From Elusimicrobiota bacterium (lineage in GTDB: Bacteria > Elusimicrobiota > Elusimicrobia > UBA1565 > UBA9628), in assembly GCA_035533295.1 (NCBI GenBank), contig DATLUA010000002.1:11323-75322 (forward strand): 64,000 nt of DNA, in the 5' to 3' direction. Made by a program: the position numbers and the translations under genes. Shown piece by piece: positions 33,883 through 56,491 of this stretch (the first letter of the stretch is position 1; the number at the start of each line of letters is the position of its first letter). A model generated the notes under the pieces. The model made no database searches, was not told where the DNA came from, and saw only the letters and a program-made list of their open reading frames with translations.

Positions 33883-34364
33883 GCCTTGCCTCCCGCGCCG
33901 CCGTCATCGCGGCGCTTTTCGGGATTGATCGCCTAAGCAAACTTTGGGCCGTCAAGTGCCTCAAACCCACGGCCGTCATCCAGGTCTTTTCTTTTTTTCG
34001 CTTCGTCTATGTCGAGAACACCGGCATGGCTTTCGGATTGGGCCGCCACCGCAATGAGCTTTTCCTGGTCCTCTCCACGGCGCTGCTGCTTGTCCTCCTC
34101 TATCTGCAGAAACTCTGGGCGAAGAAAAATCTCTGGATTCAGCTCGGACTCCTATTGATCATCGTCGGGGCCTTGGGCAATATTTGCGACCGGGTTTTAT
34201 ACGGGCACGTGGTGGACTTTCTGGATTTGCGCATCCTCTCGTTCGATGTCTTCAACGTGTTCAACGTCGCGGATTCTTGCGTGAGCGTCGGCGCGGTCTG
34301 CCTGGGGCTCGGAATTTTAAAGGACGACGCGGAAGAGAAGCGCGGCGGGAAGCCCGTCAGTTAG
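33852..34364 (+). CDS. lspA: Lipoprotein signal peptidase II
   Basis: ..[33 protein letters not shown].. Its ATG lies 31 nt inside the ileS 3' end, in a different frame. Confidence 0.85.
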
Positions 34365-34897
34365 CTGGACGGATGCTCCATCTTCCAAACGTGGTTTCCA
34401 AATAAATAGCCCCCTCCCGCCGCGAACAAAAGACCCAGAAATCCGAAGCCAAAAACCGACATGGCCACATAACCGGCATATGCGCCGGTAAGAACGCCGT
34501 TGCGGTTAGCCCTTTTGTCGCCCCCTCCCGTCTTCGGGGCCGCGACGCCGACTTCTTCGTGCGGAGCCGGGACGGACAGATTATCAGAGGACCCGCCCTG
34601 CCCAACGGCCTCATGCAGATCATACGATTGAGCCCTTTGGTTGATTTCGCCCTGGGATTTCGCGTCTCCACTCTGCGCCGCCTTATTCGGAACATCGACG
34701 ACCGCAGGAACCGAGTTCCGACATGGGCCGCCCGTATCCAAGGGACTTAAATCGCCGCAGGCACCGGCCTCCTGCAGCGTGGTCTGCGCCTTGCCGCCTT
34801 TATCTTGGATGGTCCCCTGGGACTGAGACTGCGGCCAAGCAACGGCGCAGGTCAAAACGAACGCCACCACGGCCGCTCCCAGTCTTATTCCTTTCAT
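34361..34897 (-). CDS. Hypothetical secreted/membrane protein (signal peptide plus C-terminal TM anchor)
   Basis: MKGIRLGAAVVAFVLTCAVAWPQ signal, a Gly/Ser/Ala-rich middle, and a C-terminal AGYVAMSVFGFGFLGLLFAAGGGYLFG helix. Confidence 0.45.
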   Translation of the reverse strand: MKGIRLGAAVVAFVLTCAVAWPQSQSQGTIQDKGGKAQTTLQEAGACGDLSPLDTGGPCRNSVPAVVDVPNKAAQSGDAKSQGEINQRAQSYDLHEAVGQGGSSDNLSVPAPHEEVGVAAPKTGGGDKRANRNGVLTGAYAGYVAMSVFGFGFLGLLFAAGGGYLFGNHVWKMEHPSS

Positions 34898-34969
34898 AAA
34901 TACAAGCCTCACCTTCAGAATAAAGGAAGAACTTGACCCTGTCAAGGGCCTACCAAAGTAAAAATTCGG

Positions 34970-36379
34970 TTAAAAACCGCGGCTTGCCCGTCGCAAAAGG
35001 CCGACAAGCTCAACGTGGGAGGTTTGGGGAAACAAGTCCACCGGCTGGACTCGTTCGAGCTTGTAGCCCGCGCGCGAAAGCAGCCCCGCGTCCCGCGCGA
35101 AGGTGGCTGGATTGCAGGAAACGTAGACCACGCGCTCGAAGGACCGGTGCGTTAGGGCGCGCAGCGCGCCGGGCAAGAGCCCTTGCCTCGGCGGGTCGAC
35201 CACCGCGGCGCAGGCTCCGGAGAGTTCGGCGGAAAGCTGGCGCAGGATTGATTCCACCCGTCCGGCCAGAAACCGGGCATTTTTGATTCCGTTCCTGCGC
35301 GCGTTGGCCCCGGCGTCTTGGACCGCCTCCGCATTCTCCTCGACGCCGATGATTTTATCCGCCGCGTCGGACAGCCACGCGGTGAGCGTGCCCACGCCGC
35401 AATAAAGGTCGAGAACTCGGTCGAACCTGGGAGCGCCCTCCGCCAGCGCCGAACGGGCGGCGGCGTAGAGGATTTCCGCGGCGGGAGTGTTCACCTGTAG
35501 GAAGGCTCCCGGCGAGGCCGAGAACAAAAACTTCCCGACTCGCTCCTCGATGCGTGGAACGCCCCAAAGCCGCGTCCAGCGCGGCCCCAGGACCACCGAG
35601 GTTTTCTCCGGCTGCACGTTGAGGTAAATCGAAGCCAGCTCCGGCGTCCCGGCGCGCATCTCTTCGACGAAGCGATCCCCATCCGGGAATTCGGCCGACC
35701 GTACGGCCAAGGCAATCAACGCCTGCCCCTGGGTATTGGTGCGCGCGAAGAAGTGCCTAAGCCATCCCCCGCCGCTTTTTTCATCGTAAACCTTCCAGTT
35801 GAAGCGGCGCGCCAACGCCTTGGCCTTTAACGCCAGGCGCACCGCCAAGTCCGGCTGGACCGGGCAGGCGGAAAAATCCGCAATCTGGTGGCTCTGCGGA
35901 GCGTAGAATCCCGCGATAATTTCGTTTTTTCCATTAATGCCGAAAGGAATCTGGACCTTATTGCGGTAGCCCCATATATAAGGAGAGGCCAGCGTCGGGA
36001 GCACCTCGGCGCCCGTAATCTTGCCGATGCGGCGCAGACAGTCCTCCACGATGCCCCGCTTATATTCCAGCTGCGCCGGATAGCTCAAATGCTGCCAATC
36101 GCAGCCGCCGCAAAAAAGGCCAGAGGAACCCGGGCGAAAATGGAGGGGGCACGCCGGATCGACCCGGTCCGGACCGGGCGCCACGACGCGCAGGATTTTA
36201 GCGCGGGCATAGGTTCCCTTGGTCGAGACGATTTCGGCTTCGATTTCATCGCCAGGAGCGCCGTAGGGAACAAAGACCACGCGCGCGGAATCTTGCGCCC
36301 GGGCGATGGCCTCTCCCTCGGGCGCCAAGCGCTCGACCTTGAGCCTCAAGACCTGACGTTCTCCGGACACGGCCTTCAT
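34970..36379 (-). CDS. rlmD: 23S rRNA (uracil-C5)-methyltransferase RlmD/RumA (TRAM + 4Fe-4S + SAM MTase)
   Basis: TRAM N-terminus, a Cys cluster C..C..C, VLDLYCGVGTLT SAM motif, and VVYVSCNPATFARD. The start was set at MKAVSGERQ; the 114-aa upstream extension was judged non-coding. Confidence 0.85.
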   Translation of the reverse strand: MKAVSGERQVLRLKVERLAPEGEAIARAQDSARVVFVPYGAPGDEIEAEIVSTKGTYARAKILRVVAPGPDRVDPACPLHFRPGSSGLFCGGCDWQHLSYPAQLEYKRGIVEDCLRRIGKITGAEVLPTLASPYIWGYRNKVQIPFGINGKNEIIAGFYAPQSHQIADFSACPVQPDLAVRLALKAKALARRFNWKVYDEKSGGGWLRHFFARTNTQGQALIALAVRSAEFPDGDRFVEEMRAGTPELASIYLNVQPEKTSVVLGPRWTRLWGVPRIEERVGKFLFSASPGAFLQVNTPAAEILYAAARSALAEGAPRFDRVLDLYCGVGTLTAWLSDAADKIIGVEENAEAVQDAGANARRNGIKNARFLAGRVESILRQLSAELSGACAAVVDPPRQGLLPGALRALTHRSFERVVYVSCNPATFARDAGLLSRAGYKLERVQPVDLFPQTSHVELVGLLRRASRGF

Positions 36380-36406
36380 CCTACAATTTTGTAAAATGGA
36401 CGCTCC

Positions 36407-37258
36407 ATGAAAATGCGCCCGGCGCTCCTCGCCGCAGCCGCGCTCGCGGCCGGGGCCTGCGTTCCCTACCCGCAGAGCGGCCCGGACGAATCCGGCGCCG
36501 GAAGCGCGCCCGCCGTCACCCAGGGCTCCTTCGGGCCGCTCGACGCGGGCGCCAGCCGAGTCGACAGCCTGCATTTCTCCGTGCATGCTTACGGCGATCA
36601 AGCCGCCAACCAAATCTCGGCCGCGGCCGAGACCGATTACAACAACATCATGATGGACACCAACCTTTACTCCTTCATGCCCCAGACCGGGCTCTATCAG
36701 ATTTATGTCTATGCCGACCAAGCCGAGTACCTAAAGAAGACGGGCCAGCCGGGCTGGTCCGGGGGCATGGCTTACGGCAACTCCATCTACACCTACATGA
36801 GCCAGCAGCTTTACCCCATCTTGGCCCATGAAATGACCCACGTCATTTTCTACGAGTACATGCGCTACCCCGGCGGTGAAATAAATTCTCAGCACCGCTG
36901 GGTCAACGAGGGGTTGGCCGTTTATGAGGAAGAAAAAGCGGCCTCCGGCGGACAGGGTTTGGTGGACATCTTCCCGAGCGTGCGGCCCACCATGGTCCAA
37001 AGCCCCATCCCGATGGATCAGATGATCAGCCTGGCCCCGGCGACCGAAGAGGCCCATACGGTCAGCGTTTGGTACTGCGAGGCCGAAAGCCTGGTCCAAT
37101 TCATGATCGAGCACGGCGGACGCATGGGCTTCTCGCAGTTCCTGGCCGCCCTGCAAAAGGGCCAAACTCTCGATCAAGCGGTCGCCGCGGGATTTCCCGG
37201 CACCTGGAGCAACCTGGCTTCTCTCTACAGCGCATGGAAGACATCCCTTTTGCAGTAA
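36407..37258 (+). CDS. Putative Zn-metallopeptidase lipoprotein (HExxH)
   Basis: Signal peptide with AAGAC lipobox-like Cys, then ILAHEMTHVIFYE...WVNEGLAVYEE (HExxH plus a downstream Glu). Confidence 0.55.
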   Translation: MKMRPALLAAAALAAGACVPYPQSGPDESGAGSAPAVTQGSFGPLDAGASRVDSLHFSVHAYGDQAANQISAAAETDYNNIMMDTNLYSFMPQTGLYQIYVYADQAEYLKKTGQPGWSGGMAYGNSIYTYMSQQLYPILAHEMTHVIFYEYMRYPGGEINSQHRWVNEGLAVYEEEKAASGGQGLVDIFPSVRPTMVQSPIPMDQMISLAPATEEAHTVSVWYCEAESLVQFMIEHGGRMGFSQFLAALQKGQTLDQAVAAGFPGTWSNLASLYSAWKTSLLQ

Positions 37259-39180
37259 ACGCCGCGAACCGGGTCCCTCTAATCCAGATCGCGGCGGGAA
37301 TCCTCCTGGCCACGCCCATCCTGGCTCAAAACGCCCTGGGGTTTTCCCCCTACACCGGCTTGGCCTTGTCCTTCCTGCTGGTCTTAGCCGGCGGCTGGAG
37401 TTTTCACAAAAGCGCGGCTAGGAATTTTATTTGGAAAGGGCTTGGCGCCGACGCGCTCATCTCGTTTTCTTCTTGGACGGCTTTTGTCTCCATCGCGGCC
37501 GCCGTCTTGTTCCCGCGCATCCTGCCCGCCGCGACGCGAACCTCCGGCGCGGACATTCTCTGCTCGCTCATAGTTATCTCCTCTCTCGGGCGCCGTATCG
37601 CCGACCGCATGGACGCGCGCGGCGGGCGCGCCCTGGACAGGCTGCTCCGGCTCGCGCCCAAGACCGGAAGAATACTTAATTCCTCCGGAGAAAAAACGGT
37701 CCCCATCGAGGAGATCGCGGCCGGAGCTATCGCGCATGTCCGTCCAGGGGAGCAAATTCCCGCCGACGGCGTCGTCGCCTCGGGTTCATCCCTGGTTGAC
37801 GAAGCGCTCATACACGCCACCCCCCAACCGATCGAAAAAGCCGAAGGAGCCGCCGTGACGGCCGGAGCCCTGAACAAATCCAACTCGCTCTGGCTGCGCG
37901 CCAAAAAACCGGGCGACGAATCCGAGTTGCGCCGAATCGTGGGCCAATCATCCGCCAAAAGAAATTCAGGTTCGCGTTTCTTTGGCTTCGCCGATAACGC
38001 CGCGGCGCTAAGCCTGCCCCTCGTGCTTATCGCTTCGCTGACCATGGCCGTGATTTGGGCCATTGACGGCCCCAAGTCGCGCCCCCTGTGGGCTAGCGCC
38101 GTTCTTTTCTCCGTCCTATCTGCGGCCTGCCCCTGCGCGCTCGCGCTGTCCGAGCCTCTTGCCGCCCTCTGCGGATGGCGGCAAGCCCGCAGAAAAGGCG
38201 TCAACTTCCGCCGTTTAGGCGCGCTCTCCGGAATGAACCGCATTGACGTCGTCTTGGTCGGCAAGACCGGAGTCTTGACCCGCGGGAAACCGAGCGTGGT
38301 CAAGGTCGTAGGAGCCAACCCCGGAACGGAGAAAAAATCCCTCGCCGCCGCTCTTTCCATCGCGGAGCGCTCGCCCCACCCACTGTCTGAAGCCGTCGCG
38401 GCGTACGCCCGAGAGGCCGGCGCGCGGCCTCTTCCGGTCGAATCGTTCGAGATGGATCAGGGCCGGGGCGCCACCGCCAGAATCGGCGGACGGACCGCGC
38501 GGCTGGGCAGCCTGTCCTGGCTCAAGGCCAGCGGCGTCGCCGTCCCGACCGCCGCCATCGGAGGAGCCGTTTCCGCCGTGGGCTTCGCCTGGGACAAAGA
38601 CTCTCTTCTTGTCTTTATCCTGGAGGACCAATTTCGGAACGGCGCCGCCCAAGCCGTCGCGCGGCTTAAAAGAATGGGAATCGAAACCGTGCTGGCGTGC
38701 GGGGATCGCAACGAAAGCGCTTACCGGGCGGCCGAAAAGACCGGCATCGCCCGCGTCTTTCCCGAGACCCTGCCCGAGGAAAAAATGCGCCTCGTCGAAA
38801 GGCTCCAGGCCGAGGGAAAACGCGTGGCCCTGCTGGGGCGAAAATTCTCGGATGCCGAGGCCCTCTGCCGGGCGGATTTTTCCCTTTCAGCCAAGCCCGG
38901 TTCCTCTGTCGCCCAGGAAATCGCGGATGTCGTGCTTGAGGACGGCGACATCTCCCGCGTCGCGCGGACTTTCGAAATGGGCGACGCTATCCGCCGGGCA
39001 GCTCGAAAAAACGTCCTTTGGGCGCTGGGAATAAACGCGCTCCTTCTTCCGGCGGCGGCGGGCGCCCTCTATCCTCGCTTTGGAGTCCTCATCCCCGAAT
39101 CCCTCGCGGCCGGGGTCATTCTCGCGCAAATCCTGGCGCAATGGATCAACTCAAGCAGAATCGTGAAGGAGGCGGCATGA
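37234..39180 (+). CDS. Degenerate P1B-type (heavy-metal) P-type ATPase homolog: CPC and HP motifs retained; TGES, DKTGT (now GKTGV) and GDGIND (now GRKFSD) lost
   Basis: Alignment by eye to CopA/ZntA: SAACPCALALS, ..IDVVLVGKTGVLTRGKPSV.. (CopA has IDTVVFDKTGTLTEGKPEV), ..ERSPHPLSEAV.., ..VALLGRKFSDAEAL.. (CopA has VAMVGDGINDAPAL). No N-terminal HMA domain. Confidence 0.7.
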   Translation: MEDIPFAVNAANRVPLIQIAAGILLATPILAQNALGFSPYTGLALSFLLVLAGGWSFHKSAARNFIWKGLGADALISFSSWTAFVSIAAAVLFPRILPAATRTSGADILCSLIVISSLGRRIADRMDARGGRALDRLLRLAPKTGRILNSSGEKTVPIEEIAAGAIAHVRPGEQIPADGVVASGSSLVDEALIHATPQPIEKAEGAAVTAGALNKSNSLWLRAKKPGDESELRRIVGQSSAKRNSGSRFFGFADNAAALSLPLVLIASLTMAVIWAIDGPKSRPLWASAVLFSVLSAACPCALALSEPLAALCGWRQARRKGVNFRRLGALSGMNRIDVVLVGKTGVLTRGKPSVVKVVGANPGTEKKSLAAALSIAERSPHPLSEAVAAYAREAGARPLPVESFEMDQGRGATARIGGRTARLGSLSWLKASGVAVPTAAIGGAVSAVGFAWDKDSLLVFILEDQFRNGAAQAVARLKRMGIETVLACGDRNESAYRAAEKTGIARVFPETLPEEKMRLVERLQAEGKRVALLGRKFSDAEALCRADFSLSAKPGSSVAQEIADVVLEDGDISRVARTFEMGDAIRRAARKNVLWALGINALLLPAAAGALYPRFGVLIPESLAAGVILAQILAQWINSSRIVKEAA

Positions 39181-39608
39181 AAAAAAAATCAAAAACCAAG
39201 GGGGCGTTCTACGGGTACGCTCCCGAACTCGCCTTTTCCGGCAGGTCCGAGCGCCTGCCTCCGCTGGAAACCTGGCCGAACCAATACCGGGGCTATGAAA
39301 TCAAGATCGAATGCCCGGAGTTTACCTCCATCTGCCCCAAGACCAAGCTTCCCGATTTCGGCGCGCTGACGTTGCGCTATCTTCCAAATAGGGAATGCGT
39401 GGAGCTAAAATCCTTCAAGTACTACCTGCTCGGCTACCGGAACCTGGGGATTTTCTACGAGAACGCGGTCAACCGCATCTTGGACGACGTCGTCAAGGCC
39501 GTCAAGCCCGTTTGGGCGGAACTGGAAGGCAAATTCTCCACCCGCGGCGGCATGCACTCCACGATTACCGCCCGGCACCCGCGGCGCGACGGAGAAGCCG
39601 GAAGCTAA
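39177..39608 (+). CDS. queF: NADPH-dependent 7-cyano-7-deazaguanine reductase QueF (type I)
   Basis: ..FTSICPKT..ELKSFKYYLLGYRN.. QueF motifs. RBS AAGGAGG; the ATG overlaps the ATPase stop (ATGA). Confidence 0.85.
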   Translation: MKKKSKTKGAFYGYAPELAFSGRSERLPPLETWPNQYRGYEIKIECPEFTSICPKTKLPDFGALTLRYLPNRECVELKSFKYYLLGYRNLGIFYENAVNRILDDVVKAVKPVWAELEGKFSTRGGMHSTITARHPRRDGEAGS

Positions 39609-39624
39609 ACCAGGCGGCGGGTTT

Positions 39625-40683
39625 TTAGGCCGGTTCGTCGATAAGCTCGCGCAACGCGCGCCCGACGTCCGCCTTTTGCGGCACGGTGACGTACTCAAGA
39701 ACGGGCGAGAGTCCGACGCCCGGAGTCGCCTTGCCGCACAAAAGCCTGGGCCGGACCTTCAGGTCGTAGAAAAGCTCGTCCACGGTCCGGCGGAACAGGT
39801 GCTCGCCGAAATTGGTGATCTCCGTCTCCTCGTTCAGAAAAAGAACGCGCCCGGTCTTCTTGATGGACGCCTTGATAAGTTCCCAATCGTAGGGCACCAG
39901 CGAACGCATGTCCACGACCTCGACGTCGCCGGTTCCGGCCGCGGCAAACGCTTTGGCCACATCCAGGGCGACCGGAGCCAAGCGGCCGTGGGTCACGACC
40001 GTGGCGTCCTTCCCGGCTTTGGAAATCTTGGCCTGGCCGATGGGAACGGCGTATTCCTTGACGTCCGGCCAGCGCGGCTTCCACTGGGCGCGGTCGCCGA
40101 TGGGCGCGTCGATCATCGCGCGCAGCTCCTTTTCGTTCGCAGGCTCGCCCGGGATGAGCTCTTCTCCCTTCACGCGCAAGAGCGCCTTGGGCTTCAGGAA
40201 AAGAACCGGGTTGTCGTCTTTGATGGCGGAAATCATGAGCCCGTAGGCGTCGAGCGGGTTCGAGGGGCAGACCACCTTCATGCCGTGGAGCTTGGTGGCG
40301 ATGGAATCAAAGGAATGTGAATGGTAGATGGAGCCGTGGATGCCCGAACCGGTCGGCGTCATGACCACCATCGGGGTCTTGTAGCGCCCGCCGGAAGTCC
40401 AGGTCGCGTTGGCCGCGAGCTTGAGCAAATCGATGACGTTAAAAATATAATCGACGAACTGGATTTCGGCCACGGGGCGAAACCCGGCCCAAGCCAAGCC
40501 CATGGCCGCGCCCACGATGCCGCGCTCGTCCAGCGGCGAGTTCCACGCGGTGCGCAAACCCTGCGTCGCGGTAAAAACCCCGCCCAACGGCGGGCCCACG
40601 TCCTCGCCAAAAATCTCCCGCACGCCCAGGTTTTCCTCGCCGTAGTGGAGAGCCAGGCGAATGGCTTGGACCATGTTCGCCAT
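39625..40683 (-). CDS. 2-oxoacid dehydrogenase E1 component beta subunit (transketolase-like)
   Basis: ..VREIFGEDVG..GGVF..T.GL....ERGIVGAAMGLA..GFRPVAEIQF.. The start was set at MANMVQAIRLAL. Confidence 0.9.
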   Translation of the reverse strand: MANMVQAIRLALHYGEENLGVREIFGEDVGPPLGGVFTATQGLRTAWNSPLDERGIVGAAMGLAWAGFRPVAEIQFVDYIFNVIDLLKLAANATWTSGGRYKTPMVVMTPTGSGIHGSIYHSHSFDSIATKLHGMKVVCPSNPLDAYGLMISAIKDDNPVLFLKPKALLRVKGEELIPGEPANEKELRAMIDAPIGDRAQWKPRWPDVKEYAVPIGQAKISKAGKDATVVTHGRLAPVALDVAKAFAAAGTGDVEVVDMRSLVPYDWELIKASIKKTGRVLFLNEETEITNFGEHLFRRTVDELFYDLKVRPRLLCGKATPGVGLSPVLEYVTVPQKADVGRALRELIDEPA

Positions 40684-41717
40684 CAGCTGCCTCCCTTGGT
40701 AGGATAGGACGGCGGCAGGGGCTCCGCGTAGACTCCTTCCCAAATGGATTCCGGCGAGGGGTAGGGCTCCTTCTTGACCTGCTGATGGGCGTCGTCGACT
40801 TCGGCCAAGGCCTGGGACCAGACCTTCTCCAAATCTTCCTTCTTCGCCAAGCCCTGGGCCGTGAGCTTCTCCTCGAAAAGGGCGATGCAGTCCGGCTCGT
40901 TCACGCGGTTGGCGCCCGAAGCCGAGGAATGGCCGTAAAGCCGGCTGCAGACGGCCTCCAAAAGATAGGGCTTTCTTTCCTTGCGGCAGTAGGCCAGCGC
41001 TTCCTTAATGGAGGCGTAGGACTCGGCGACGTCGTTGCCGTCGATGGTCTTGGCCGCCATGCTGAAAACCTTGCCCCAATCGGAAATCTTTTTCTCGCCG
41101 TGCTGGGTCTGCTCCGGCACGGAGATGGCGTAGTGATTATTGACCACGATGATGAGGATGGGCAGCGGTAGAATCGGACGATTGGCCCACACCAGGCAGG
41201 AGTGGAAGTCCCCCTCCGCCGTGCCGCCGTCCCCCCCGGTGACGATGGTGACGGCGTCCCCGGGCGTCCGGGCATTGGCGATGGCCGTGCCGATGGCCGA
41301 GGAATACTGGGTCTCGATGGTCGAAGTCACGGGCACGACGTTCCACTCCGGAACGCAGTAGTGGTTGACGAAATTGCGCCCCTTGGTATATGGATCCGTC
41401 GCCACCGTGCGCATCTGCCGGATGCCGTCGATGGTCGTGGCGCCCATGGCCAGGAGCGTGGCGCTGTTGCGGTAATGGAGATTGAGGTAATCGTAGCGCG
41501 GCCCTTGGCCTTTCTTGACCTGGAGTCCCAAGCTGACGTTGAACGCCTCTTCTCCAGGACCGCCGATCCAGAAATAGCCCTCGCCGGTGCGCCCCATCTT
41601 GATGCAGCGCTCCTCCAAAATCCGGGCGCGGACCATGAGGGTATGGATTTTGAGCAAAAGAGCCTTATCCATCGTGCCGAAAGGGCCGCCGGAGACGGCC
41701 ACGGTTGGCTGGGCCAT
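40683..41717 (-). CDS. 2-oxoacid dehydrogenase E1 component alpha subunit (TPP-dependent; pyruvate/acetoin/branched-chain type)
   Basis: ..GGDGGTAEGDFHSCLVWA.. TPP-binding motif and overall E1-alpha similarity. Confidence 0.9.
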   Translation of the reverse strand: MAQPTVAVSGGPFGTMDKALLLKIHTLMVRARILEERCIKMGRTGEGYFWIGGPGEEAFNVSLGLQVKKGQGPRYDYLNLHYRNSATLLAMGATTIDGIRQMRTVATDPYTKGRNFVNHYCVPEWNVVPVTSTIETQYSSAIGTAIANARTPGDAVTIVTGGDGGTAEGDFHSCLVWANRPILPLPILIIVVNNHYAISVPEQTQHGEKKISDWGKVFSMAAKTIDGNDVAESYASIKEALAYCRKERKPYLLEAVCSRLYGHSSASGANRVNEPDCIALFEEKLTAQGLAKKEDLEKVWSQALAEVDDAHQQVKKEPYPSPESIWEGVYAEPLPPSYPTKGGS

Positions 41718-41764
41718 AAATTTAGGATAGCAAAAAATTGCGGAGACTTAAATTCGAGCCCGCT

Positions 41765-42205
41765 CTAGGGCTGAACGGCGGGCGCCGGGCCGCGCGTCAT
41801 GCGCCAAGACGAGGAAGCGCCGTCATTGCCGTTGAAAGTCCCCTGGCAGGGGCCCGCGGAAGCGCACTGCCCGCTGCCGCTGCCTCCGCCGCACGAGTTC
41901 CCGGCCGGCGCCGCCTCGGAAAAGGAAACTGACCCGTCGGAACCGACGGTCCCCTTGGCGTCGGCGGCATCGAAGGTTCCATCGTTCGCGACGGTGACCG
42001 GAAGATTAAAAGGTCCCCATTGCGCGGAGCATCCCGGAACGGCCGGAGTGGAGCCGGGTTGAGCCGTGAAATTCCAGGTCCCCGTGTAGGGATTTTTCTC
42101 GTTGAAGGAAAGCCCTTTAAACCCGACGCCTGAAAGGCTTTGGCAGCCCGCGAGCCCGGCCGCGACGCACAGGCAAACCGCCGCTTTAGAGCGATTTCCC
42201 GTCAT
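41765..42205 (-). CDS. Small Cys/Gly-rich lipoprotein
   Basis: MTGNRSKAAVCLCVAAGLAGC lipobox, then a Cys-rich secreted region. The start was set at the internal Met directly after the permease stop. Confidence 0.45.
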   Translation of the reverse strand: MTGNRSKAAVCLCVAAGLAGCQSLSGVGFKGLSFNEKNPYTGTWNFTAQPGSTPAVPGCSAQWGPFNLPVTVANDGTFDAADAKGTVGSDGSVSFSEAAPAGNSCGGGSGSGQCASAGPCQGTFNGNDGASSSWRMTRGPAPAVQP

Positions 42206-46525: not shown

Positions 46526-49500
46526 CTAAGGATAGCGCCGCCGCCGGCGGGAAGCCGCGGCTTGGTACTGCAGGTGGAACTTCACCGCCTCCAGCGCGGC
46601 CTTGTTGATGAAGGGCCTTGGGTCCGTGAGCATCTTTTCGATTTTGGAGATGGGCCGGCCATTCTCATCGGTCTCGTTCTCCGCCAGGTAGCCCCGGATG
46701 CGGCCCGAGCGCGCCGCCATCTTGGCCCAGGCCTGCGCCGCCTCGTGCTGGGCGAGTTCGCCGTAGCCGGAAGAAACGCCGTCGAGAATCCGGAACACCA
46801 TGGCTTCGTCCTCCACCGCCGAGGACGCGGATACCGCGGACAGGACCATGACCAATTTGGCGACGTTCAAACTCCCGCTGACGGCCAAATAGTGGCCCAA
46901 ATGGCGGCGCAAGTCAGCTTCGGATCCCTCGAAAATGCGCCGGGTCGCCAAGAGTTTTTCCAAGGCCTGTCCCGCCGCGACGCCAAAAAACATGTGCTGC
47001 TCGACAGAGGAAAACCCGTCAATCATGTCTCGCATTTTTTTCGCGGCGGCTTCCGCGTCCCGATCGGAGCTCAAGTCTGCGGCGGCATAGAGCGCGAGCG
47101 CCTCGTCACGCTTCACCTCATGAGAGGAGTCGGCAGGCGGGGCCCCCCATGCGCCCCGCCCGCGCCATGATTGATAAAGTTCCTCCAAGCGTTTCGGAGC
47201 GACGCGCTGCAAATAGCGGTAGAGGACTTTCGCCCGCTCGGCCTGGGCGATGCCGGTGCTGATGGAGTAGCCGGCGCCGGTGACGCCGACCCAATCCTGC
47301 ATCAGCATTTCCTTGAATTCGGGCCCTCCCCAGCGCGCGGCCGCGAGAAAAAGCGCTTCTTTCTCCGTCGTCCGGTTTTGGCGCGCCGCTTGGTAACGGC
47401 GCATGAGCTCGGCTTGCTCCTCCCGCGTCTCGGGCTTCAAAAGCGCGGCCAGGGATTCCGCCAAGGCCAGCCTGAGCGGATTGTAATTATCCCCGCCGAT
47501 GCTGCTGTCTTCGGCTCGCCTGATGGCCTCGGTAACCAACCGCGCGTCTTCGGCCCCTGCGCCCGAACGGGCCAAAATGCCGGCCGCGGCGGCGGCCTCG
47601 GGGTAATACCGGTAAAGCGCGGCCATCTTATCGGAGGAAAGGATTTCCCTGGCCCACTCAACATCGTTTGGCGCGGCGGCGGCCAATGTTTCCGCCGCGG
47701 CGTAGCGCACGCCGGGGCTGCGGGTGTCCTCCTGCGCCAGAAGTCTTATGAGAAACTCCTTAAGTCCGCCCCTATCGTCATTGCTGGCGGGAAAATAAGA
47801 ACCCTTCGGCGTCGAGACCGCCCGAGTCTGGGGCGAGGATGCAGGAGCCTCGGCCGCGGCCGGTTGGCTCTTGAGCAGGATCAAGACCTCGGGAGAAACC
47901 CGCACCTCGGTTCCAGGTTCCGCGGCCAGCTCCAGGGCGAACTGGGCGGCCGCCCGCTCATCGGGGAACGCCACGCCATGATAATGGGGGCCGTCTTTTT
48001 CGCGCACCCAATAGTCCGGCCGGCGGCCGAAGCGCGCGACGATGCGATCGTAATTCTCCGAGGATCCCGTCTGCTCTCCGAAATTAAACAGCACGATTTC
48101 CGCCCTGTCGGCGGGATTCCAAGCCGAATCATGCGGGACGAAGACGGCGATTTTATCCGTGCCGCGCCGCAGGCTGCGCATCAATCCGGGATGGATCAGA
48201 ACCTTGGAAACGCCTTCCGCGCGAATCAGCGCCAGCACGGCGCGCACGGCGGCGCCTGTATCCGGCGCCGAGCCCTTAAGAGTGAACCGCGGGCTGACAT
48301 TGGACGTTTCGCGCATGAAAATGGAGAGGCCGGCGCGGCGCGCCAAATCTTCCACCTCCCTCTTTTTTGAAGCATCATCGCTCAAAACCAAAATAGTGTT
48401 CTCCGCCGTTATATCCGCGGATTCAGAAATCTTTCCCGCGTTCTCAGGGAAAAGAACGGATGGCGCGTCATGGGCATCGGCGGGAGCCGGGAGCGCCGGA
48501 ATCCCGTTGTCCGAACTGGGATTGACGACTCGGGCGTAGACCTCCGGGTGCACGGCCACGGCTGAAATCGCGGCGGAAGCGGCCAGGGCCAGCGCCAAAC
48601 GCGCCGCGTCCCGCGCGCCCGCCAAGGTCGCGAAAGCCTGGTAGGAGGACGGCGCGCCGTGGCGCATCGTCATCACGGGCACGCCGCCAAATCCCGCGGC
48701 CCCAAGCGCCGCGTTCAAGGCCGCGCGCGCGTCGGCGGCGGAAGCGGCGGAGACGAACACGCGGCCTGCGGAAGCCCGCGGGTGGAGAACCGTGTCGAAG
48801 GCCGCCACCTTGGATGCCGGAGAAGACGCCCCGGCGCCGGGCTGCGCCTGCGGCTCCGAAGCATGGCCCTCTTGAGCGGACGTCGAAAAAGAGGAGCCTT
48901 CCGTTCCGGCGTCTGAGTTATCAGCCGCAGGCGGCTCGCTGGACGGCCCGTTTCCAGGAACCTCGATCCAAATGGCAGCTTCTTTTCCCTCGACGAATCG
49001 CGGCAAAACGCCCGTTTCGGGCGAAGGCGCGTTCGGGTCGATGCCGGCTCGCGCTCCGGCCTCATAAAAAATCCGTCCGCCGCCGGCCCTGAAATTATGG
49101 CCCACCACGGTCTGGGGGGCGAAGGCGGCTTTAAGCCGCCGAACGGCCTCCGGAGAAAGAACCCGCGCCGGCGCCCGGATCCGGATCAGGATGCGCCCGG
49201 AACCCATCCGCCAATTCACGTCGATGCTCCGCCCCTCTTCAATTAAGGACTTAATGATAAGAATCGTTTCGCGGTAGGCTTGAGCCGCGGCCAAGCGCTG
49301 GAAGCGCGGCAAGCCGGAACGTCCGGAGTCCTCCCCGTAGGACTGCAGAGCCGCCGTTTCGCTCTCCGAATTCCCGTTGACTATTTCGACGGTCTTCCCG
49401 GGGCCGTTCCACCCAAAGGGAAAATTCTCCGGCATGGGCAGGACCGCGTCCGGGACTTCGTCCTGCGCCGCTTGGGCGGGAGGCTCCTGCGGGTCGCGCA

Positions 49501-51007
49501 CGCGCTCCGCGATCACGTCCGCCAGAGACTTGGCGACTCGGATGTAGGCGATTTCCTTTTGGCGCAGGAGCGCGATGGTTTTTTCCGCGGCCGCCTCAAG
49601 GGAGGAGAATAAATCCGGCGTGGCGACGCGCTCGCTTTGGATAACCGCCGGTTTCCCGATGCCGAAACGTTCCAGAAACGACCGGATGGAATCGGCCGAT
49701 AACGGATCGGCGAAATGGATGTTGACGCTTTTTTCTTCCGTCACGGCGGGGCGAACTCTCAAGCGGCGCAAGAGTTCTTCGGAAAGAGGCATCGGCTCCG
49801 ATGGAGCTAAATCAAGGCGCCGCTCGATGAGCGGCCTCAAGGCGGCGGGAACCTCCAAGCGGGTCAGATGGGGATCGTCAAGCAATTCCAGCGCCCTCTT
49901 GATGGCCGCCTCCCGGTTCGACATGAAAAAATACAGGCGCGGCTCATTGACGTTTTTGCCCCCCCAGCGAGCGAGGTCCTCCTGGGTGCTGAATTGCGCG
50001 TCCAGGCGGTTGCCGGAAAGTTCTTCCTTGACCGCGAGCCGATCCGCCATCAAGATCGGCGGCACGGCCTCGGCCGCCGCGCCCTCATCCGCCGCCGGTG
50101 TTTTTGAAACGGGCGCCTTGGGAAAGGACGGCACGACATCCGGATGAACCGCCACGGAGGAGATAATGTCCAGCCCCGCCAAAGCCACGGCCGCTTTGGC
50201 GGCCTCTTCGGCGTTCTTGAAGTCGATAAACGCCCCGCCGGAACGCAGGTAGGCCGGCGCCGCCGGCAGATTAAGCTTAAGAAGGGCGGCGCCGAGGGCT
50301 TCGCGATCCGCGCCATAAACCCGCAGCCGCCCGGGCAGGCTCTTGGGAGGCGTCAAAGAATCCGCGAGCCTTATTTTGGGCGGCACCGCGCCGATGGAAA
50401 TCGCCTCCGCCAAGGACATTCGAGTTCCCCATGCCGCGGCGGCTTGGCCGATTCCGATTCTAATCCGGTCTTCTTTATGTTGCGCAAGCCTTCTCTCCAG
50501 CGCCGCTATTTTTTCACGTTGCGGCGCGCTCAGCAAAGCTTCGTACAGCTTGAGCCGGCTTAAGGACTTTTCCAGGCCGGCCGCGTTTGCTTTCGCGATT
50601 TTCTCCGGCTCCGAAGCCAATATCCTATCCGCGCTGCGGCGTTCTTGCGCGGCTTTTCGCGTCAACGCTTCCAAAGCGTTCCGGCGGGCGCCCTCGGCCT
50701 CCGGCGCGCTCCCCTCCGCCTTGAGGACCGGGGCCACGGCTTGAGCCAGTTGCGGCGAGAGGCCCCCCGCGCACGAAAGCCCTTCCAAGAGATCACCCGC
50801 GTCCATGCCGTTGAACATCATGCCTTGGCTTTGGGAAATGATTTCAGGAGAAATCAGGGCCGGAACGGCCCCTTCGGCGGAAGAACCTTCCACGGGAGCG
50901 ACTTCCGCGGCCAAGGCGGCGTAAACGCCGGCGCCCGGCGACGCCAGCACGAGGCCCGCGCTCAAAAACAGCGAGAGAGCCCGGATTGCCCGGCTATCTC
51001 GATTCAT
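46526..51007 (-). CDS. Giant secreted Ala-rich protein (1493 aa), no recognised catalytic domain; N-terminal signal region similar to (apparently paralogous with) the upstream giant gene; internal repeated ..AVHP(D/E)V.. modules
   Basis: Intact 4.5-kb ORF starting MNRDSRAIRALSLFLSAGLVLASPGAGVYAALAAE. Overlaps the upstream giant ORF by 14 nt. Confidence 0.65.
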   Translation of the reverse strand: MNRDSRAIRALSLFLSAGLVLASPGAGVYAALAAEVAPVEGSSAEGAVPALISPEIISQSQGMMFNGMDAGDLLEGLSCAGGLSPQLAQAVAPVLKAEGSAPEAEGARRNALEALTRKAAQERRSADRILASEPEKIAKANAAGLEKSLSRLKLYEALLSAPQREKIAALERRLAQHKEDRIRIGIGQAAAAWGTRMSLAEAISIGAVPPKIRLADSLTPPKSLPGRLRVYGADREALGAALLKLNLPAAPAYLRSGGAFIDFKNAEEAAKAAVALAGLDIISSVAVHPDVVPSFPKAPVSKTPAADEGAAAEAVPPILMADRLAVKEELSGNRLDAQFSTQEDLARWGGKNVNEPRLYFFMSNREAAIKRALELLDDPHLTRLEVPAALRPLIERRLDLAPSEPMPLSEELLRRLRVRPAVTEEKSVNIHFADPLSADSIRSFLERFGIGKPAVIQSERVATPDLFSSLEAAAEKTIALLRQKEIAYIRVAKSLADVIAERVRDPQEPPAQAAQDEVPDAVLPMPENFPFGWNGPGKTVEIVNGNSESETAALQSYGEDSGRSGLPRFQRLAAAQAYRETILIIKSLIEEGRSIDVNWRMGSGRILIRIRAPARVLSPEAVRRLKAAFAPQTVVGHNFRAGGGRIFYEAGARAGIDPNAPSPETGVLPRFVEGKEAAIWIEVPGNGPSSEPPAADNSDAGTEGSSFSTSAQEGHASEPQAQPGAGASSPASKVAAFDTVLHPRASAGRVFVSAASAADARAALNAALGAAGFGGVPVMTMRHGAPSSYQAFATLAGARDAARLALALAASAAISAVAVHPEVYARVVNPSSDNGIPALPAPADAHDAPSVLFPENAGKISESADITAENTILVLSDDASKKREVEDLARRAGLSIFMRETSNVSPRFTLKGSAPDTGAAVRAVLALIRAEGVSKVLIHPGLMRSLRRGTDKIAVFVPHDSAWNPADRAEIVLFNFGEQTGSSENYDRIVARFGRRPDYWVREKDGPHYHGVAFPDERAAAQFALELAAEPGTEVRVSPEVLILLKSQPAAAEAPASSPQTRAVSTPKGSYFPASNDDRGGLKEFLIRLLAQEDTRSPGVRYAAAETLAAAAPNDVEWAREILSSDKMAALYRYYPEAAAAAGILARSGAGAEDARLVTEAIRRAEDSSIGGDNYNPLRLALAESLAALLKPETREEQAELMRRYQAARQNRTTEKEALFLAAARWGGPEFKEMLMQDWVGVTGAGYSISTGIAQAERAKVLYRYLQRVAPKRLEELYQSWRGRGAWGAPPADSSHEVKRDEALALYAAADLSSDRDAEAAAKKMRDMIDGFSSVEQHMFFGVAAGQALEKLLATRRIFEGSEADLRRHLGHYLAVSGSLNVAKLVMVLSAVSASSAVEDEAMVFRILDGVSSGYGELAQHEAAQAWAKMAARSGRIRGYLAENETDENGRPISKIEKMLTDPRPFINKAALEAVKFHLQYQAAASRRRRRYP

Positions 51008-56285: not shown

Positions 56286-56320
56286 GTAACCGGTATCCTT
56301 GTCTAGTCCAAAATATAACG

Positions 56321-56342
56321 CGGACGCGCGACGGCGCGTCCG
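56321..56342. promoter_or_regulatory. Perfect palindrome CGGACGCGC-GACG-GCGCGTCCG (9-bp arms) 36 nt upstream of the giant operon start; candidate operator
   Basis: Seen directly. It lies in an AT-richer 170-nt intergenic region, with a TATATA-like element upstream and an AAGGATA RBS downstream on the minus strand. Confidence 0.45.
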
Positions 56343-56491
56343 AACCAACGTTATTCTGATATATAGAAGCTTCCTTAAGTAGGGTCGATGGTTCCAGCCC
56401 AAGGCCGGCAATGGGCCTAAGGTTCGGTGGGACTTAAGACCTACGTGAAGATGGGTTTACGACGGCTGCGAAGGGTCCGCAGACGCGGTGA

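What the first reader, a model, noticed from the sequence alone, without database searches (positions are those of the whole stretch)
37234..39180. Catalytically dead P1B-type ATPase homolog (DKTGT becomes GKTGV) translationally coupled to queF
The ORF is intact for about 650 aa and aligns with CopA/ZntA-type pumps through the CPC transmembrane metal site and the HP motif. The phosphorylated Asp is replaced (VLVGKTGVLTRGKP), the A-domain TGES is gone (LIHATPQPI) and GDGIND is GRKFSD. It also lacks an N-terminal HMA domain. A protein that keeps the fold but cannot form the E-P intermediate points to a non-pumping role such as a metal sensor, channel or scaffold, or to a very recent pseudogenisation. 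Its stop overlaps the queF start (ATGA), which indicates co-expression.
Basis: partly seen in the sequence, partly recalled or inferred. Interest (0 to 1): 0.6.

Follow-up and report, generated by a model that had tools for sequence, protein, structure and literature searches.

The report
Conserved dead copper-pump homolog in Elusimicrobia
An intact, well-conserved relative of bacterial copper pumps has lost every residue needed to burn ATP, yet is kept under purifying selection in a lineage of uncultured Elusimicrobiota, always next to the same secreted metallopeptidase gene, so it is a pseudoenzyme and not a broken gene.

Summary
Window 37234-39180(+) encodes an intact 648-aa P1B-type ATPase homolog. 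It scores 363.9 bits on TIGR01525 and E=1e-83 to LpCopA, and the AF2 model has pLDDT 86 and TM 0.83 to 3RFU. DKTGT is GKTGV, TGE is ATP, GDGxND is GRKFSD and SEHP is SPHP. The TM5/TM6 Cu+ ligands and the HMA domain are gone, while CPC and HP remain.

It is not a recent pseudogene or an assembly error. Five orthologs from independent Elusimicrobiota assemblies (94-51% identity) carry the same dead motifs, with dN/dS of 0.15-0.21 in both headpiece and membrane domains. A wider HMA-less degenerate family also exists, and NJ bootstraps suggest the nucleophile Asp was lost at least twice within it. This family nests inside an Elusimicrobial clade of HMA-bearing, motif-intact Cu+ pumps at the same locus.

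A Peptidase_MA_2 lipoprotein gene lies immediately upstream in 18/18 loci of this clade and 0/77 other P1B loci. queF lies downstream in 16/18 and also follows an intact ortholog, so the queF coupling is real but inherited synteny.

Best reading: a non-pumping pseudo-ATPase, probably a membrane partner of the peptidase. That role is inferred and untested.

The parts
36407..37258 (+). Peptidase_MA_2 lipoprotein gene. It has a signal peptide with an invariant Cys18 and an intact HEMTH...WVNEGLAVYEE gluzincin site. It overlaps the ATPase start by 25 nt.
   Evidence: Pfam PF13485 scores 37.7 bits against a cutoff of 32.4. Alignment A4 shows invariant C18, H141, E142, H145 and E168. A homolog lies immediately upstream of the ATPase in 18/18 loci of this Elusimicrobial clade and in 0/77 other P1B loci.
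37234..39180 (+). 648-aa catalytically dead P1B-type ATPase homolog (pseudo-ATPase). It has 8 TM helices plus A, P and N domains and no HMA domain.
   Evidence: AF2 model pLDDT 86, pTM 0.82. Foldseek TM 0.83 to LpCopA 3RFU. dN/dS 0.15-0.21.
37813..37824 (+). A-domain position of TGE(P/S), here HATP. The dephosphorylation Glu is replaced by Thr196.
   Evidence: phmmer alignment to 3RFU. Motif tables. Coordinates verified.
38128..38136 (+). TM4 CPC motif, retained.
   Evidence: It is CPY in P0004 and CPW/APW/CPP in the more distant degenerate relatives.
38260..38274 (+). Phosphorylation motif DKTGT, here GKTGV. The nucleophile Asp is replaced by Gly343 (codon GGC).
38371..38382 (+). N-domain SEHP motif, here SPHP. 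His-Pro is kept and the adenine-binding Glu is lost. The downstream GxG (GRG, 38461-38469) is kept.
38698..38706 (+). P-domain TGD, here CGD. The Asp is retained.
38836..38853 (+). Hinge motif GDGxND, here GRKFSD. The Mg2+-ligand Asp and the Asn are lost and the last Asp is kept.
39031..39036 (+). TM5 Cu+-site YN, here IN. The Tyr is lost.
39118..39132 (+). TM6 Cu+-site MxxSS, here ILAQI. The Met and both Ser are lost.
39177..39608 (+). queF (unimodular preQ0 reductase). Its ATG overlaps the ATPase TGA (ATGA at 39177-39180) and an AAGGAGG Shine-Dalgarno sequence lies inside the ATPase 3' end. The catalytic Cys (SICPKT) and the QueF motif (ELKSFKYY) are present.
   Evidence: TIGR03139 scores 138.8 bits against a cutoff of 86.9. 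Sequence. queF lies downstream of the ATPase in 16/18 clade loci.

Best explanation
The gene encodes a pseudoenzyme. It is a full-length membrane protein with the P1B (CopA-type) ATPase fold that descends from an HMA-bearing Cu+ exporter at the same chromosomal locus.

It can no longer run the Post-Albers cycle, for these reasons:
- There is no Asp to phosphorylate (G343).
- There is no Mg2+-ligand Asp or Asn in the hinge (GRKFSD).
- There is no A-domain Glu to dephosphorylate (HATP).
- The N-domain Glu is missing.
- The TM5/TM6 Cu+ ligands and the N-terminal metal-binding domain are gone.

It is nevertheless kept intact and under purifying selection in all domains throughout a lineage of uncultured Elusimicrobiota.

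It is made from the same operon as an extracytoplasmic MA-clan (HExxH) metallopeptidase lipoprotein, and its start overlaps that gene. The peptidase was already paired with the active ancestral pump.

The most likely present role is non-catalytic: a membrane partner (anchor, docking platform or allosteric regulator) of that lipoprotein. It may still bind nucleotide through the retained HP/GxG pocket and the P-domain Lys/Asp residues.

Shown here: homology, fold, loss of every catalytic motif, conservation, selection, stepwise decay and synteny. Inferred: absence of ATPase and pump activity (from established P-type ATPase/HAD chemistry) and the partnership with the peptidase (from invariant gene pairing only).
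For: Homology and fold:
- TIGR01525 scores 363.9 bits, above the 346.25 cutoff.
- LpCopA matches at E=1.4e-83.
- The AF2 model has pLDDT 86 and pTM 0.82.
- Foldseek gives TM 0.83 to 3RFU and 0.79 to 4BBJ.

Dead motifs are placed identically by phmmer, MAFFT and hmmalign and their coordinates were verified.

The same substitutions occur in orthologs P0001-P0005 (94, 84, 71, 69 and 51% identity), which come from independent JGI, ENA, NCBI and Logan assemblies.

Purifying selection:
- dN/dS is 0.15-0.21 at dS 0.2-1.2.
- Bootstrap 95% CIs span 0.11-0.25 over three pairs, and the headpiece and membrane parts give similar values.
- Every domain has omega at or below 0.4.
- One motif-intact sister pair gives omega 0.196.

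Wider family:
- HMA-less degenerate relatives of about 650 aa (P0015, P0122-P0126) were found by searching 1.8 billion cluster representatives with a profile.
- All of them lack the TGE Glu and the hinge Asp/Asn.
- The other 139 newly retrieved hits among the best 150 keep the Asp nucleophile, a (T/S/R)GE motif and the hinge Asp, apart from P0121, a sister-clade member with GEGFND.

Phylogeny (NJ):
- The HMA-less forms are monophyletic at 99% bootstrap.
- They group with the HMA-bearing GEGFND clade at 100%.
- The Asp-less forms are never monophyletic (0%), so the nucleophile was lost at least twice after the cycle had already been disabled.

Synteny:
- The Peptidase_MA_2 gene lies immediately upstream in 18/18 clade loci. 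In most it overlaps the ATPase start by 4-28 nt, and in the P0015 lineage there is a 7-nt gap.
- It is present in 0/77 P1B loci from other phyla.
- The peptidase active site and lipobox Cys are invariant.
Against: No biochemical or expression data exist, so loss of activity is inferred from motif chemistry.

The partnership with the peptidase rests on gene order alone. P1B pumps expose very little to the periplasm, which limits the possible contact surface.

The CPC motif and very strong M5-M6 conservation among the closest relatives (omega 0.02-0.05) could instead point to a residual metal-related function.

dN/dS is 1.5-2 times higher than for the flanking peptidase and queF genes, so constraint is somewhat relaxed.

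The phylogeny is neighbour-joining on long branches, so long-branch attraction could inflate the monophyly of the degenerate forms.

I could not check whether these genomes carry a second, functional CopA.
Confidence: 0.6

Rival explanations
1. The protein has a residual metal-handling role without ATP. It would act as a passive Cu+/metal channel, exchanger, sink or sensor, using the retained TM4 CPC site.
For: CPC is retained in the window protein and in four of its five close orthologs, and the TM5 Asn is kept. M5-M6 is the most constrained segment among the closest relatives, with omega 0.02-0.05. The ancestor was a Cu+ pump with the CPC/YN/MxxSS signature.
Against: The TM5 Tyr, the TM6 Met and Ser, and the HMA domain are all lost. 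CPC itself is not conserved family-wide: it is CPY in P0004 and CPW/APW/CPP in P0015 and P0122-P0126. Compared with real pumps, the ion-binding helices M3-M4 and M5-M6 lost the most conservation (0.54 to 0.35 and 0.64 to 0.36), while the headpiece lost little. A pure channel or sensor would not need conserved A, P and N domains, yet headpiece omega is 0.14-0.19.
Confidence: 0.17
2. The gene is decaying and has no function of its own. It would be a recently or slowly pseudogenising copA, or an ORF kept open only so that ribosomes reach queF by translational coupling.
For: All catalytic motifs are lost. omega is 1.5-2 times higher than in the neighbouring genes. The stem branch is long. The ATGA overlap with queF is conserved.
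Against: There are no frameshifts or stops in any of about 12 lineages spanning 31-94% identity. omega is 0.15-0.21, with upper CI bounds at or below 0.25, in both headpiece and membrane. Coupling alone would preserve the reading frame but not the amino-acid sequence. queF has its own strong Shine-Dalgarno sequence. The one intact sister pair measured has a similar omega.
Confidence: 0.05
3. The protein is still an ATP-driven pump that uses non-canonical chemistry, for example another nucleophile or partner-supplied residues.
For: The N-domain His-Pro and GxG, the P-domain Lys344, Asp491 (of TGD), Lys517 and Asp540 are invariant across the degenerate family.
Against: In the HAD/P-type superfamily the motif-I Asp is the obligatory nucleophile (established knowledge). 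Here the Asp, the hinge Mg2+ ligand, the hinge Asn, the A-domain Glu and the N-domain Glu are all missing at once. The replacement of the Asp differs between lineages (Gly or Asn), which is not what conserved alternative chemistry would look like.
Confidence: 0.03
4. The finding is an artefact, caused by sequencing or assembly error or by misalignment of the motifs.
For: None found.
Against: The same substitutions appear in independent assemblies from four sources. The several alignment runs (phmmer, MAFFT, hmmalign) agree on motif placement.
Confidence: 0.01

Closest known systems
P1B-1 Cu+-exporting P-type ATPases (CopA; LpCopA 3RFU/4BBJ, AfCopA 7R0G/3J09; TIGR01525, TIGR01511)
   Same: It shares the 8-helix membrane domain with the MA/MB helices and the A, P and N domains. 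It keeps the TM4 CPC, the N-domain HP and GxG, and the P-domain Lys, the Asp of TGD and the last hinge Asp. Matches are E=1e-83 and TM 0.83. Its nearest intact relatives, at the same locus, carry the full Cu+ signature.
   Different: It has no phosphorylatable Asp, no TGE Glu, no GDGxND Asp or Asn, no SEHP Glu, no TM5 Tyr, no TM6 Met or Ser, and no HMA domain. It scores far below the CopA equivalog cutoffs: NF007952 gives 294.8 bits against 1316, and TIGR01511 gives 295.6 against 397.
HMA-bearing Elusimicrobial orthologs at the same locus (P0006-P0014, P0121, P0127, P0128)
   Same: They are orthologous by synteny, with the Peptidase_MA_2 gene upstream and usually queF downstream. They are 40-42% identical and share clade-specific features such as the GEGFND-type hinge, which is still visible as GEGFAD in P0005.
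   Different: They keep HMA (CxxC), TGES, DKTGT (DKTGV in P0121), SEHP, YN and MxxSS, so they look like working Cu+ pumps. The window protein has lost all of these.
P4-ATPase modules of alveolate guanylate cyclases (P4GC-beta of haemosporidians, Cryptosporidium P4GC)
   Same: This is a precedent for a P-type ATPase module that keeps its predicted fold and is retained although the DKTGT Asp and the A-domain Glu are altered. [quoted passage not shown]
   Different: Those proteins are eukaryotic, belong to subfamily P4 (lipid flippases), and are fused to a cyclase in one polypeptide. Here the protein is a stand-alone bacterial P1B homolog, and the candidate partner is encoded by a separate gene.
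FtsEX-type 'non-transporting transporters' that control periplasmic hydrolases (analogy from my own knowledge, not tested here)
   Same: This is the logic I propose: a transporter fold that moves no substrate but works with an extracytoplasmic hydrolase encoded next to it.
   Different: FtsE is a catalytically active ABC ATPase from an unrelated superfamily. No interaction has been shown for the present pair.

Membership tests
P1B-type heavy-metal P-type ATPase (TIGR01525 / TC 3.A.3.5) | Sequence homology above the curated family threshold | tested here: met
   TIGR01525 scores 363.9 bits against a cutoff of 346.25. Pfam E1-E2_ATPase gives 2.4e-30 and Hydrolase gives 1.8e-19.
P1B-type heavy-metal P-type ATPase (TIGR01525 / TC 3.A.3.5) | Fold: MA/MB plus six core TM helices, with A, P and N domains | tested here: met
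   AF2 model pLDDT 86 and pTM 0.82. Foldseek TM 0.83 to 3RFU over 656 aligned columns.
P1B-type heavy-metal P-type ATPase (TIGR01525 / TC 3.A.3.5) | DKTGT motif with the phosphorylated Asp | tested here: not met
   The motif is GKTGV, with Gly343 aligned to LpCopA Asp426.
P1B-type heavy-metal P-type ATPase (TIGR01525 / TC 3.A.3.5) | A-domain TGE(S/P) dephosphorylation loop | tested here: not met
   HATP occupies the position of TGEP.
P1B-type heavy-metal P-type ATPase (TIGR01525 / TC 3.A.3.5) | GDGxND hinge (Mg2+ ligand) | tested here: not met
   The hinge is GRKFSD and only the last Asp is kept.
P1B-type heavy-metal P-type ATPase (TIGR01525 / TC 3.A.3.5) | CPx motif in TM4 | tested here: met
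   CPC at residues 299-301.
P1B-type heavy-metal P-type ATPase (TIGR01525 / TC 3.A.3.5) | N-domain HP dipeptide and GxG | tested here: met
   The motif is SPHP, with H382 and P383, followed by GRG at 410-412. The preceding Glu is lost.
P1B-type heavy-metal P-type ATPase (TIGR01525 / TC 3.A.3.5) | ATP-dependent metal transport with an aspartyl-phosphate intermediate | not testable with these tools
   This needs a phosphoenzyme, ATPase or transport assay. It is predicted to be absent from motif chemistry.
P1B-1 (Cu+/Ag+) subgroup | TM5 YN(x4)P and TM6 MxxSS metal ligands | tested here: not met
   The residues are IN and ILAQI. The TM5 Asn and Pro are kept, while the Tyr, Met and both Ser are lost.
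P1B-1 (Cu+/Ag+) subgroup | N-terminal HMA (CxxC) metal-binding domain (usual, not obligatory) | tested here: not met
   There is no PF00403 hit. The protein starts about 90 residues later than its HMA-bearing orthologs.
Pseudoenzyme (operational definition) | Clear homolog of an enzyme family that lacks essential catalytic residues | tested here: met
Pseudoenzyme (operational definition) | Retained by purifying selection across species, i.e. not a pseudogene | tested here: met
   omega is 0.15-0.21, with bootstrap 95% CIs spanning 0.11-0.25. ORFs are intact in about 12 lineages.
Pseudoenzyme (operational definition) | Experimentally shown to lack catalytic activity while having a biological role | not testable with these tools
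   No cultured host and no biochemical data.
QueF, unimodular type (TIGR03139), for the downstream gene | HMM score above the cutoff, catalytic Cys, and the QueF motif E(S/L)K(S/A)hK(L/Y)(Y/F/W) | tested here: met
   138.8 bits against a cutoff of 86.9. SICPKT and ELKSFKYY are present in the translation.
Peptidase_MA_2 (PF13485), for the upstream gene | HMM score above the gathering threshold, plus HExxH and a downstream Glu (gluzincin) | tested here: met
   37.7 bits against 32.4. HEMTH and NEGLAVYEE are invariant in 7 orthologs. There are only weak hits to the M1 aminopeptidase core in the PDB, at E around 0.1.

The most novel reading that the evidence does not exclude
This would be the first recognised family of bacterial P-type-ATPase pseudoenzymes. 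In an Elusimicrobiota lineage, a Cu+ pump that was already paired with an extracytoplasmic MA-clan metallopeptidase lipoprotein was converted stepwise. First the metal-binding domain, the dephosphorylation Glu and the TM5/6 ligands were lost. Then the nucleophile Asp was lost independently in at least two sub-lineages. The result is a non-catalytic membrane protein that now acts as the peptidase's receptor or allosteric regulator, possibly sensing nucleotide without hydrolysing it.
Probability: 0.3. Interest if true: 0.7.

Novelty: new variant of a known kind. Interest (0 to 1): 0.6.

Why it matters
P-type ATPases are defined by their aspartyl-phosphate. Full-length members that lack it and are still conserved are hardly documented. 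The one precedent my searches turned up is the ATPase module of alveolate guanylate cyclases. Six full-text searches returned no bacterial example.

This family offers a natural series at one syntenic locus: intact pump, then partly degenerate forms that still keep the Asp, then Asp-less forms. That makes it possible to ask which parts of the fold are kept for a non-pumping job.

The family also flags a systematic annotation error. Public records call these proteins 'heavy metal translocating P-type ATPase' or 'Cu+-exporting ATPase'. This would inflate predicted copper resistance in Elusimicrobiota MAGs.

Finally, the invariant pairing of the P1B ATPase gene with a Peptidase_MA_2 lipoprotein gene, seen for active and dead forms alike, is an unexplained association worth testing in its own right.

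Tried and rejected
- **Recent pseudogene or sequencing error.** Rejected by ortholog motifs and dN/dS.
- **A functional link specific to queF.** queF also follows a motif-intact ortholog (L005) and is missing from two motif-intact loci (L012, L095). No preQ1 riboswitch or any other Rfam family occurs in 34000-42000; the only hit is a chance IRES match at E=0.76.
- **Promoter and terminator scan of 36200-39800.** It found no sigma-70-like site, and terminator-like sites were not above shuffled expectation. Nothing separates pep, atp and queF, but the scan is uninformative for this phylum.
- **Possible relic of the HMA linker.** The tblastn alignment of P0008 begins 48 nt upstream of the ATG, at 37186. 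I judged this to be chance extension, because that stretch is the conserved 3' end of the peptidase gene in another frame.
- **The 318-aa antisense ORF at 37404-38360(-) and other overlapping ORFs.** These are GC-rich shadow ORFs in a window of 62.6% GC.
- **A second P1B gene in the window.** None was found by tblastn.
- **Literature.** Searches for bacterial P-type ATPase pseudoenzymes and for P1B ATPases in Elusimicrobia returned nothing relevant.
- **GTDB scan.** It added only three species representatives of the dead clade; the other 77 loci were ordinary pumps.
- **First tree attempt.** The Biopython bootstrap timed out and was redone with a faster distance routine.


Full report
**1. The observation**

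Window 37234-39180(+) is an uninterrupted ORF of 648 codons. Its ATG lies 25 nt inside the 3' end of the preceding gene, whose stop is TAA at 37256-37258. Its TGA overlaps the ATG of the next gene as ATGA at 39177-39180, with AAGGAGG just upstream.

Pfam finds E1-E2_ATPase and the HAD Hydrolase domain but no HMA domain. NCBIfam places the protein in TIGR01525, the heavy-metal P-type ATPases, at 363.9 bits against a cutoff of 346.25. The CopA and ZntA equivalog models score far below their cutoffs.

The best solved relative is Legionella CopA (3RFU), at E=1.4e-83 and aligned over residues 39-643. In that alignment, in the alignment to the CopA of 7R0G, in two MAFFT alignments and in an hmmalign run, the motifs fall in the same places:

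| Canonical motif | In the window protein | Note |
|---|---|---|
| TGEP | HATP | dephosphorylation Glu lost |
| CPC | CPC | kept |
| DKTGT | GKTGV | Gly343 replaces LpCopA Asp426 |
| SEHP | SPHP | HP kept, Glu lost |
| TGD | CGD | Asp kept |
| GDGVND | GRKFSD | only the last Asp kept |
| TM5 YN | IN | Tyr lost |
| TM6 MALSS | ILAQI | Met and both Ser lost |

**2. The fold is intact**

An AlphaFold2 model built on a 63-sequence alignment has mean pLDDT 86 and pTM 0.82. It shows eight TM helices and recognisable A, P and N domains. Foldseek against the PDB returns LpCopA first (TM 0.83 to 3RFU, 0.79 to the E2P form 4BBJ), followed by ATP7B, ZntA, CadA and KdpB.

**3. It is neither an error nor a recent pseudogene**

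A search of 5.8 billion protein clusters returned five full-length orthologs of 648-654 aa. They are 94, 84, 71, 69 and 51% identical and come from JGI, ENA, NCBI and Logan assemblies labelled Elusimicrobia or Elusimicrobiota. All five carry the dead motifs:
- Phosphorylation motif: GKTGV, GKTSV or GKRGA.
- A-domain loop: IHAA, IHNS or LFGR in place of TGE.
- Hinge: GxKFSD or GEGFAD.

Nei-Gojobori dN/dS for the ATPase is 0.15-0.21 at dS 0.22-1.24. Codon-bootstrap 95% CIs are 0.144-0.247, 0.115-0.186 and 0.106-0.223 for three pairs. The cytoplasmic headpiece (0.14-0.19) and the membrane part (0.16-0.21) are equally constrained, and every domain has omega at or below 0.4. The flanking peptidase (0.06-0.11) and queF (0.06-0.15) genes are somewhat more constrained. 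A pair of motif-intact sister-clade pumps gives 0.196, so the dead protein is not obviously more relaxed than that one working-looking pair.

**4. Where it came from**

The next-best hits (P0006-P0014, about 42% identity, about 738 aa) carry the following:
- an HMA domain with GMHCASC;
- TGES, DKTGT and SEHP;
- the complete Cu+ signature CPC/YN/MALSS;
- an unusual GEGFND hinge.

They sit at the same locus as the window gene. The order is ileS-lspA, one or two unannotated genes and a TrmA-like methyltransferase gene (all on the opposite strand), then Peptidase_MA_2, the ATPase and queF.

A profile search of 1.84 billion cluster representatives found further HMA-less proteins of about 650 aa (P0122-P0126), in addition to P0015, which came from the first search. 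Their motifs are degenerate to different degrees:

| Protein | Phosphorylation motif | A-domain loop | TM4 |
|---|---|---|---|
| P0122 | GKTGV | TGRV | CPW |
| P0015 | NKTGF | TGSD | CPW |
| P0123 | DKKGI | TGSS | APW |
| P0124 | DKTGV | TGSG | CPW |
| P0125 | DKTGV | TGVS | CPW |
| P0126 | DKTGV | NDRT | CPP |

All of these lack the A-domain Glu, the hinge Asp/Asn and the TM5/6 ligands. The other 139 newly retrieved hits among the best 150 keep the Asp nucleophile, a (T/S/R)GE motif and the hinge Asp, apart from P0121, a sister-clade member with GEGFND.

NJ bootstraps give this picture (300 replicates for the split frequencies; tree):
- The HMA-less forms are monophyletic at 99%.
- They group with the GEGFND HMA-bearing clade at 100%.
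- The window clade has 100% support.
- P0015 plus P0122 group at 96%.
- A clade containing all Asp-less forms is never recovered (0%).

The simplest history has two stages. First, a single event or period removed the HMA domain and disabled dephosphorylation and metal coordination. Second, the now useless nucleophile was lost independently at least twice. P0005 still has GEGFAD, a trace of the ancestral GEGFND hinge.

There are two caveats. NJ on long branches is vulnerable to long-branch attraction. Also, DKTGV by itself need not be inactivating, because HAD motif I is DxDx(T/V) (my own knowledge).

**5. Distribution**

A scan of one genome per GTDB species found the window clade in only three species representatives, all Elusimicrobiota MAGs. 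The other 77 confirmed loci were ordinary P1B pumps from other phyla. Every named member of the degenerate family is from Elusimicrobia or Elusimicrobiota. They are annotated as 'heavy metal translocating P-type ATPase', 'Cu+-exporting ATPase', 'HAD-IC family P-type ATPase' or 'hypothetical protein'.

**6. Genomic partners**

HMMs built from the neighbouring genes were run over all 95 fetched loci.
- The Peptidase_MA_2 homolog lies immediately upstream of the ATPase in 18/18 loci of the Elusimicrobial clade, whether the ATPase is dead, intermediate or canonical. This includes L095, whose other neighbours are different.
- It is present in 0/77 other P1B loci.
- queF lies downstream in 16/18 loci. 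It is absent from L012 and L095, both of which have intact pumps.

The peptidase stop and the ATPase start overlap by 4-28 nt in most lineages, and there is a 7-nt gap in the P0015 lineage.

The peptidase is a predicted lipoprotein. Its Cys18 follows a hydrophobic signal peptide, and it has an invariant HExxH plus NEGLAVYEE gluzincin site. It has only faint similarity to M1 aminopeptidase cores in the PDB.

The deep and specific association is with the peptidase.

**7. What is conserved and what is not**

Across the degenerate family, mean pairwise identity drops most, relative to canonical pumps, in M3-M4 (0.54 to 0.35) and M5-M6 (0.64 to 0.36). It drops less in A (0.50 to 0.39), P1 (0.53 to 0.42) and P2 (0.50 to 0.44), and not at all in N (0.30 to 0.35).

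Invariant residues in all 12 HMA-less sequences include Lys344 (of DKTGT), Thr349, His382, Gly412, Asp465, Asp491 (of TGD), Lys517, Asp540 and Asp548. A good part of the nucleotide/phosphate pocket therefore survives, while the nucleophile and the Mg2+ ligand do not.

This pattern argues against a role centred on the ion pathway (channel or metal sensor). It favours a role that needs the whole architecture, including the cytoplasmic headpiece. Within the window's closest relatives M5-M6 is very constrained (omega 0.02-0.05), so a lineage-specific membrane function is not excluded.

**8. Mechanism**

Shown:
- The protein keeps the P1B fold.
- It lacks every residue required for phosphoryl transfer, Mg2+ binding and dephosphorylation, and most Cu+ ligands.
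- It is under purifying selection.
- It descends from a Cu+ pump at the same locus.
- It is always encoded with, and translationally linked to, an extracytoplasmic metallopeptidase lipoprotein.

Inferred from established P-type ATPase/HAD chemistry: it cannot form E-P and cannot pump.

Inferred from gene pairing only: it now serves as a non-catalytic membrane partner (anchor, dock or regulator) of the peptidase, possibly still binding nucleotide.

I give about 0.85-0.9 to 'conserved non-pumping pseudoenzyme' and about 0.4 to the specific partner role. The overall figure for the combined statement is 0.6.

Rivals:
- Residual metal-binding, channel or sensor role: 0.17.
- Functionless decay, or an ORF kept only for coupling: 0.05.
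- Non-canonical catalysis: 0.03.
- Artefact: 0.01.

**9. Comparison with what is known**

By homology and fold the protein belongs to the P1B family. By the family's defining catalytic features (DKTGT Asp, TGE, GDGxND) it fails membership as an ATPase. It is best filed as a P1B-ATPase-derived pseudoenzyme.

The one precedent my searches turned up for conserved P-type modules with altered Asp and Glu is the P4-ATPase module of alveolate guanylate cyclases (PMC13466520). Six full-text searches returned no bacterial or P1B example. The library does not cover many subscription-journal papers, so a prior mention, for example in surveys of uncharacterised P-type families, cannot be excluded.

**10. 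Verdict**

The finding is real and more than a curiosity of one genome. It is a conserved, phylum-restricted, mis-annotated family that records the stepwise conversion of a pump into a pseudoenzyme.

The function remains unknown in the strict sense. The invariant peptidase partner gives a concrete, testable hypothesis.

Novelty: a new variant of a known kind. Interest: 0.6.

Noticed in passing
window 50994-56411 (-) and 46526-51007 (-): A 1805-aa ORF combines three modules: a Peptidase_M50 (site-2 protease) domain at residues 333-485, a STAND/AAA_16-AAA_22 NTPase at 836-960, and a ClpB-like AAA_2 plus D2-small module at 1225-1505. It overlaps by 14 nt a downstream 1493-aa ORF that has no Pfam hit at all. 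This is an unusual giant gene pair.
   Followed up: no
L005, L012 and L095, plus proteins P0006-P0014 and P0121: The motif-intact HMA-bearing Elusimicrobial orthologs have a GEGFND hinge in place of the near-universal GDGxND, and P0121 has DKTGV. P0127 and P0128 have GDGFND. Whether the Glu variant is fully active is unknown. It may be the first step of the decay series.
   Followed up: partly
window 36407-37258 (+) and its orthologs in L001-L015 and L093-L095: A Peptidase_MA_2 lipoprotein gene with an intact HExxH...E site is invariably encoded immediately upstream of the P1B ATPase gene, usually overlapping its start, in this Elusimicrobial clade. This holds for apparently active Cu+ pumps as well as dead ones. 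It is absent from 77 P1B loci of other phyla. I know of no described link between a metallopeptidase and a Cu+ pump.
   Followed up: partly
window 37186-37233 (+): The tblastn alignment of the HMA-bearing ortholog P0008 starts 48 nt upstream of the ATPase ATG, in the ATPase frame, and aligns to the end of the HMA domain and its linker. It is probably chance extension, because this stretch is the conserved 3' end of the peptidase gene in another frame.
   Followed up: partly
L005 8620-10266, L012 7208-8905, L006 8426-9835: In the HMA-bearing clade and the P0015 lineage, an unannotated 470-565-aa ORF with no Pfam hit follows queF. In L012, which lacks queF, it follows the ATPase directly. It is absent from the window clade, where a convergent E1 dehydrogenase pair follows instead. 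I did not check whether the three ORFs are homologous.
   Followed up: no
public records for P0003, P0005, P0123, P0125, P0126 and P0269: Members of the degenerate family are annotated in NCBI and JGI as 'heavy metal translocating P-type ATPase', 'Cu+-exporting ATPase' or 'HAD-IC family P-type ATPase'. This is a systematic over-annotation of copper-efflux capacity in Elusimicrobiota MAGs.
   Followed up: yes
window 37404-38360 (-): A 318-aa antisense ORF lies inside the ATPase gene, and several others of 60-145 aa occur on both strands. These are shadow ORFs typical of a window with 62.6% GC. I made no homology search for them.
   Followed up: no
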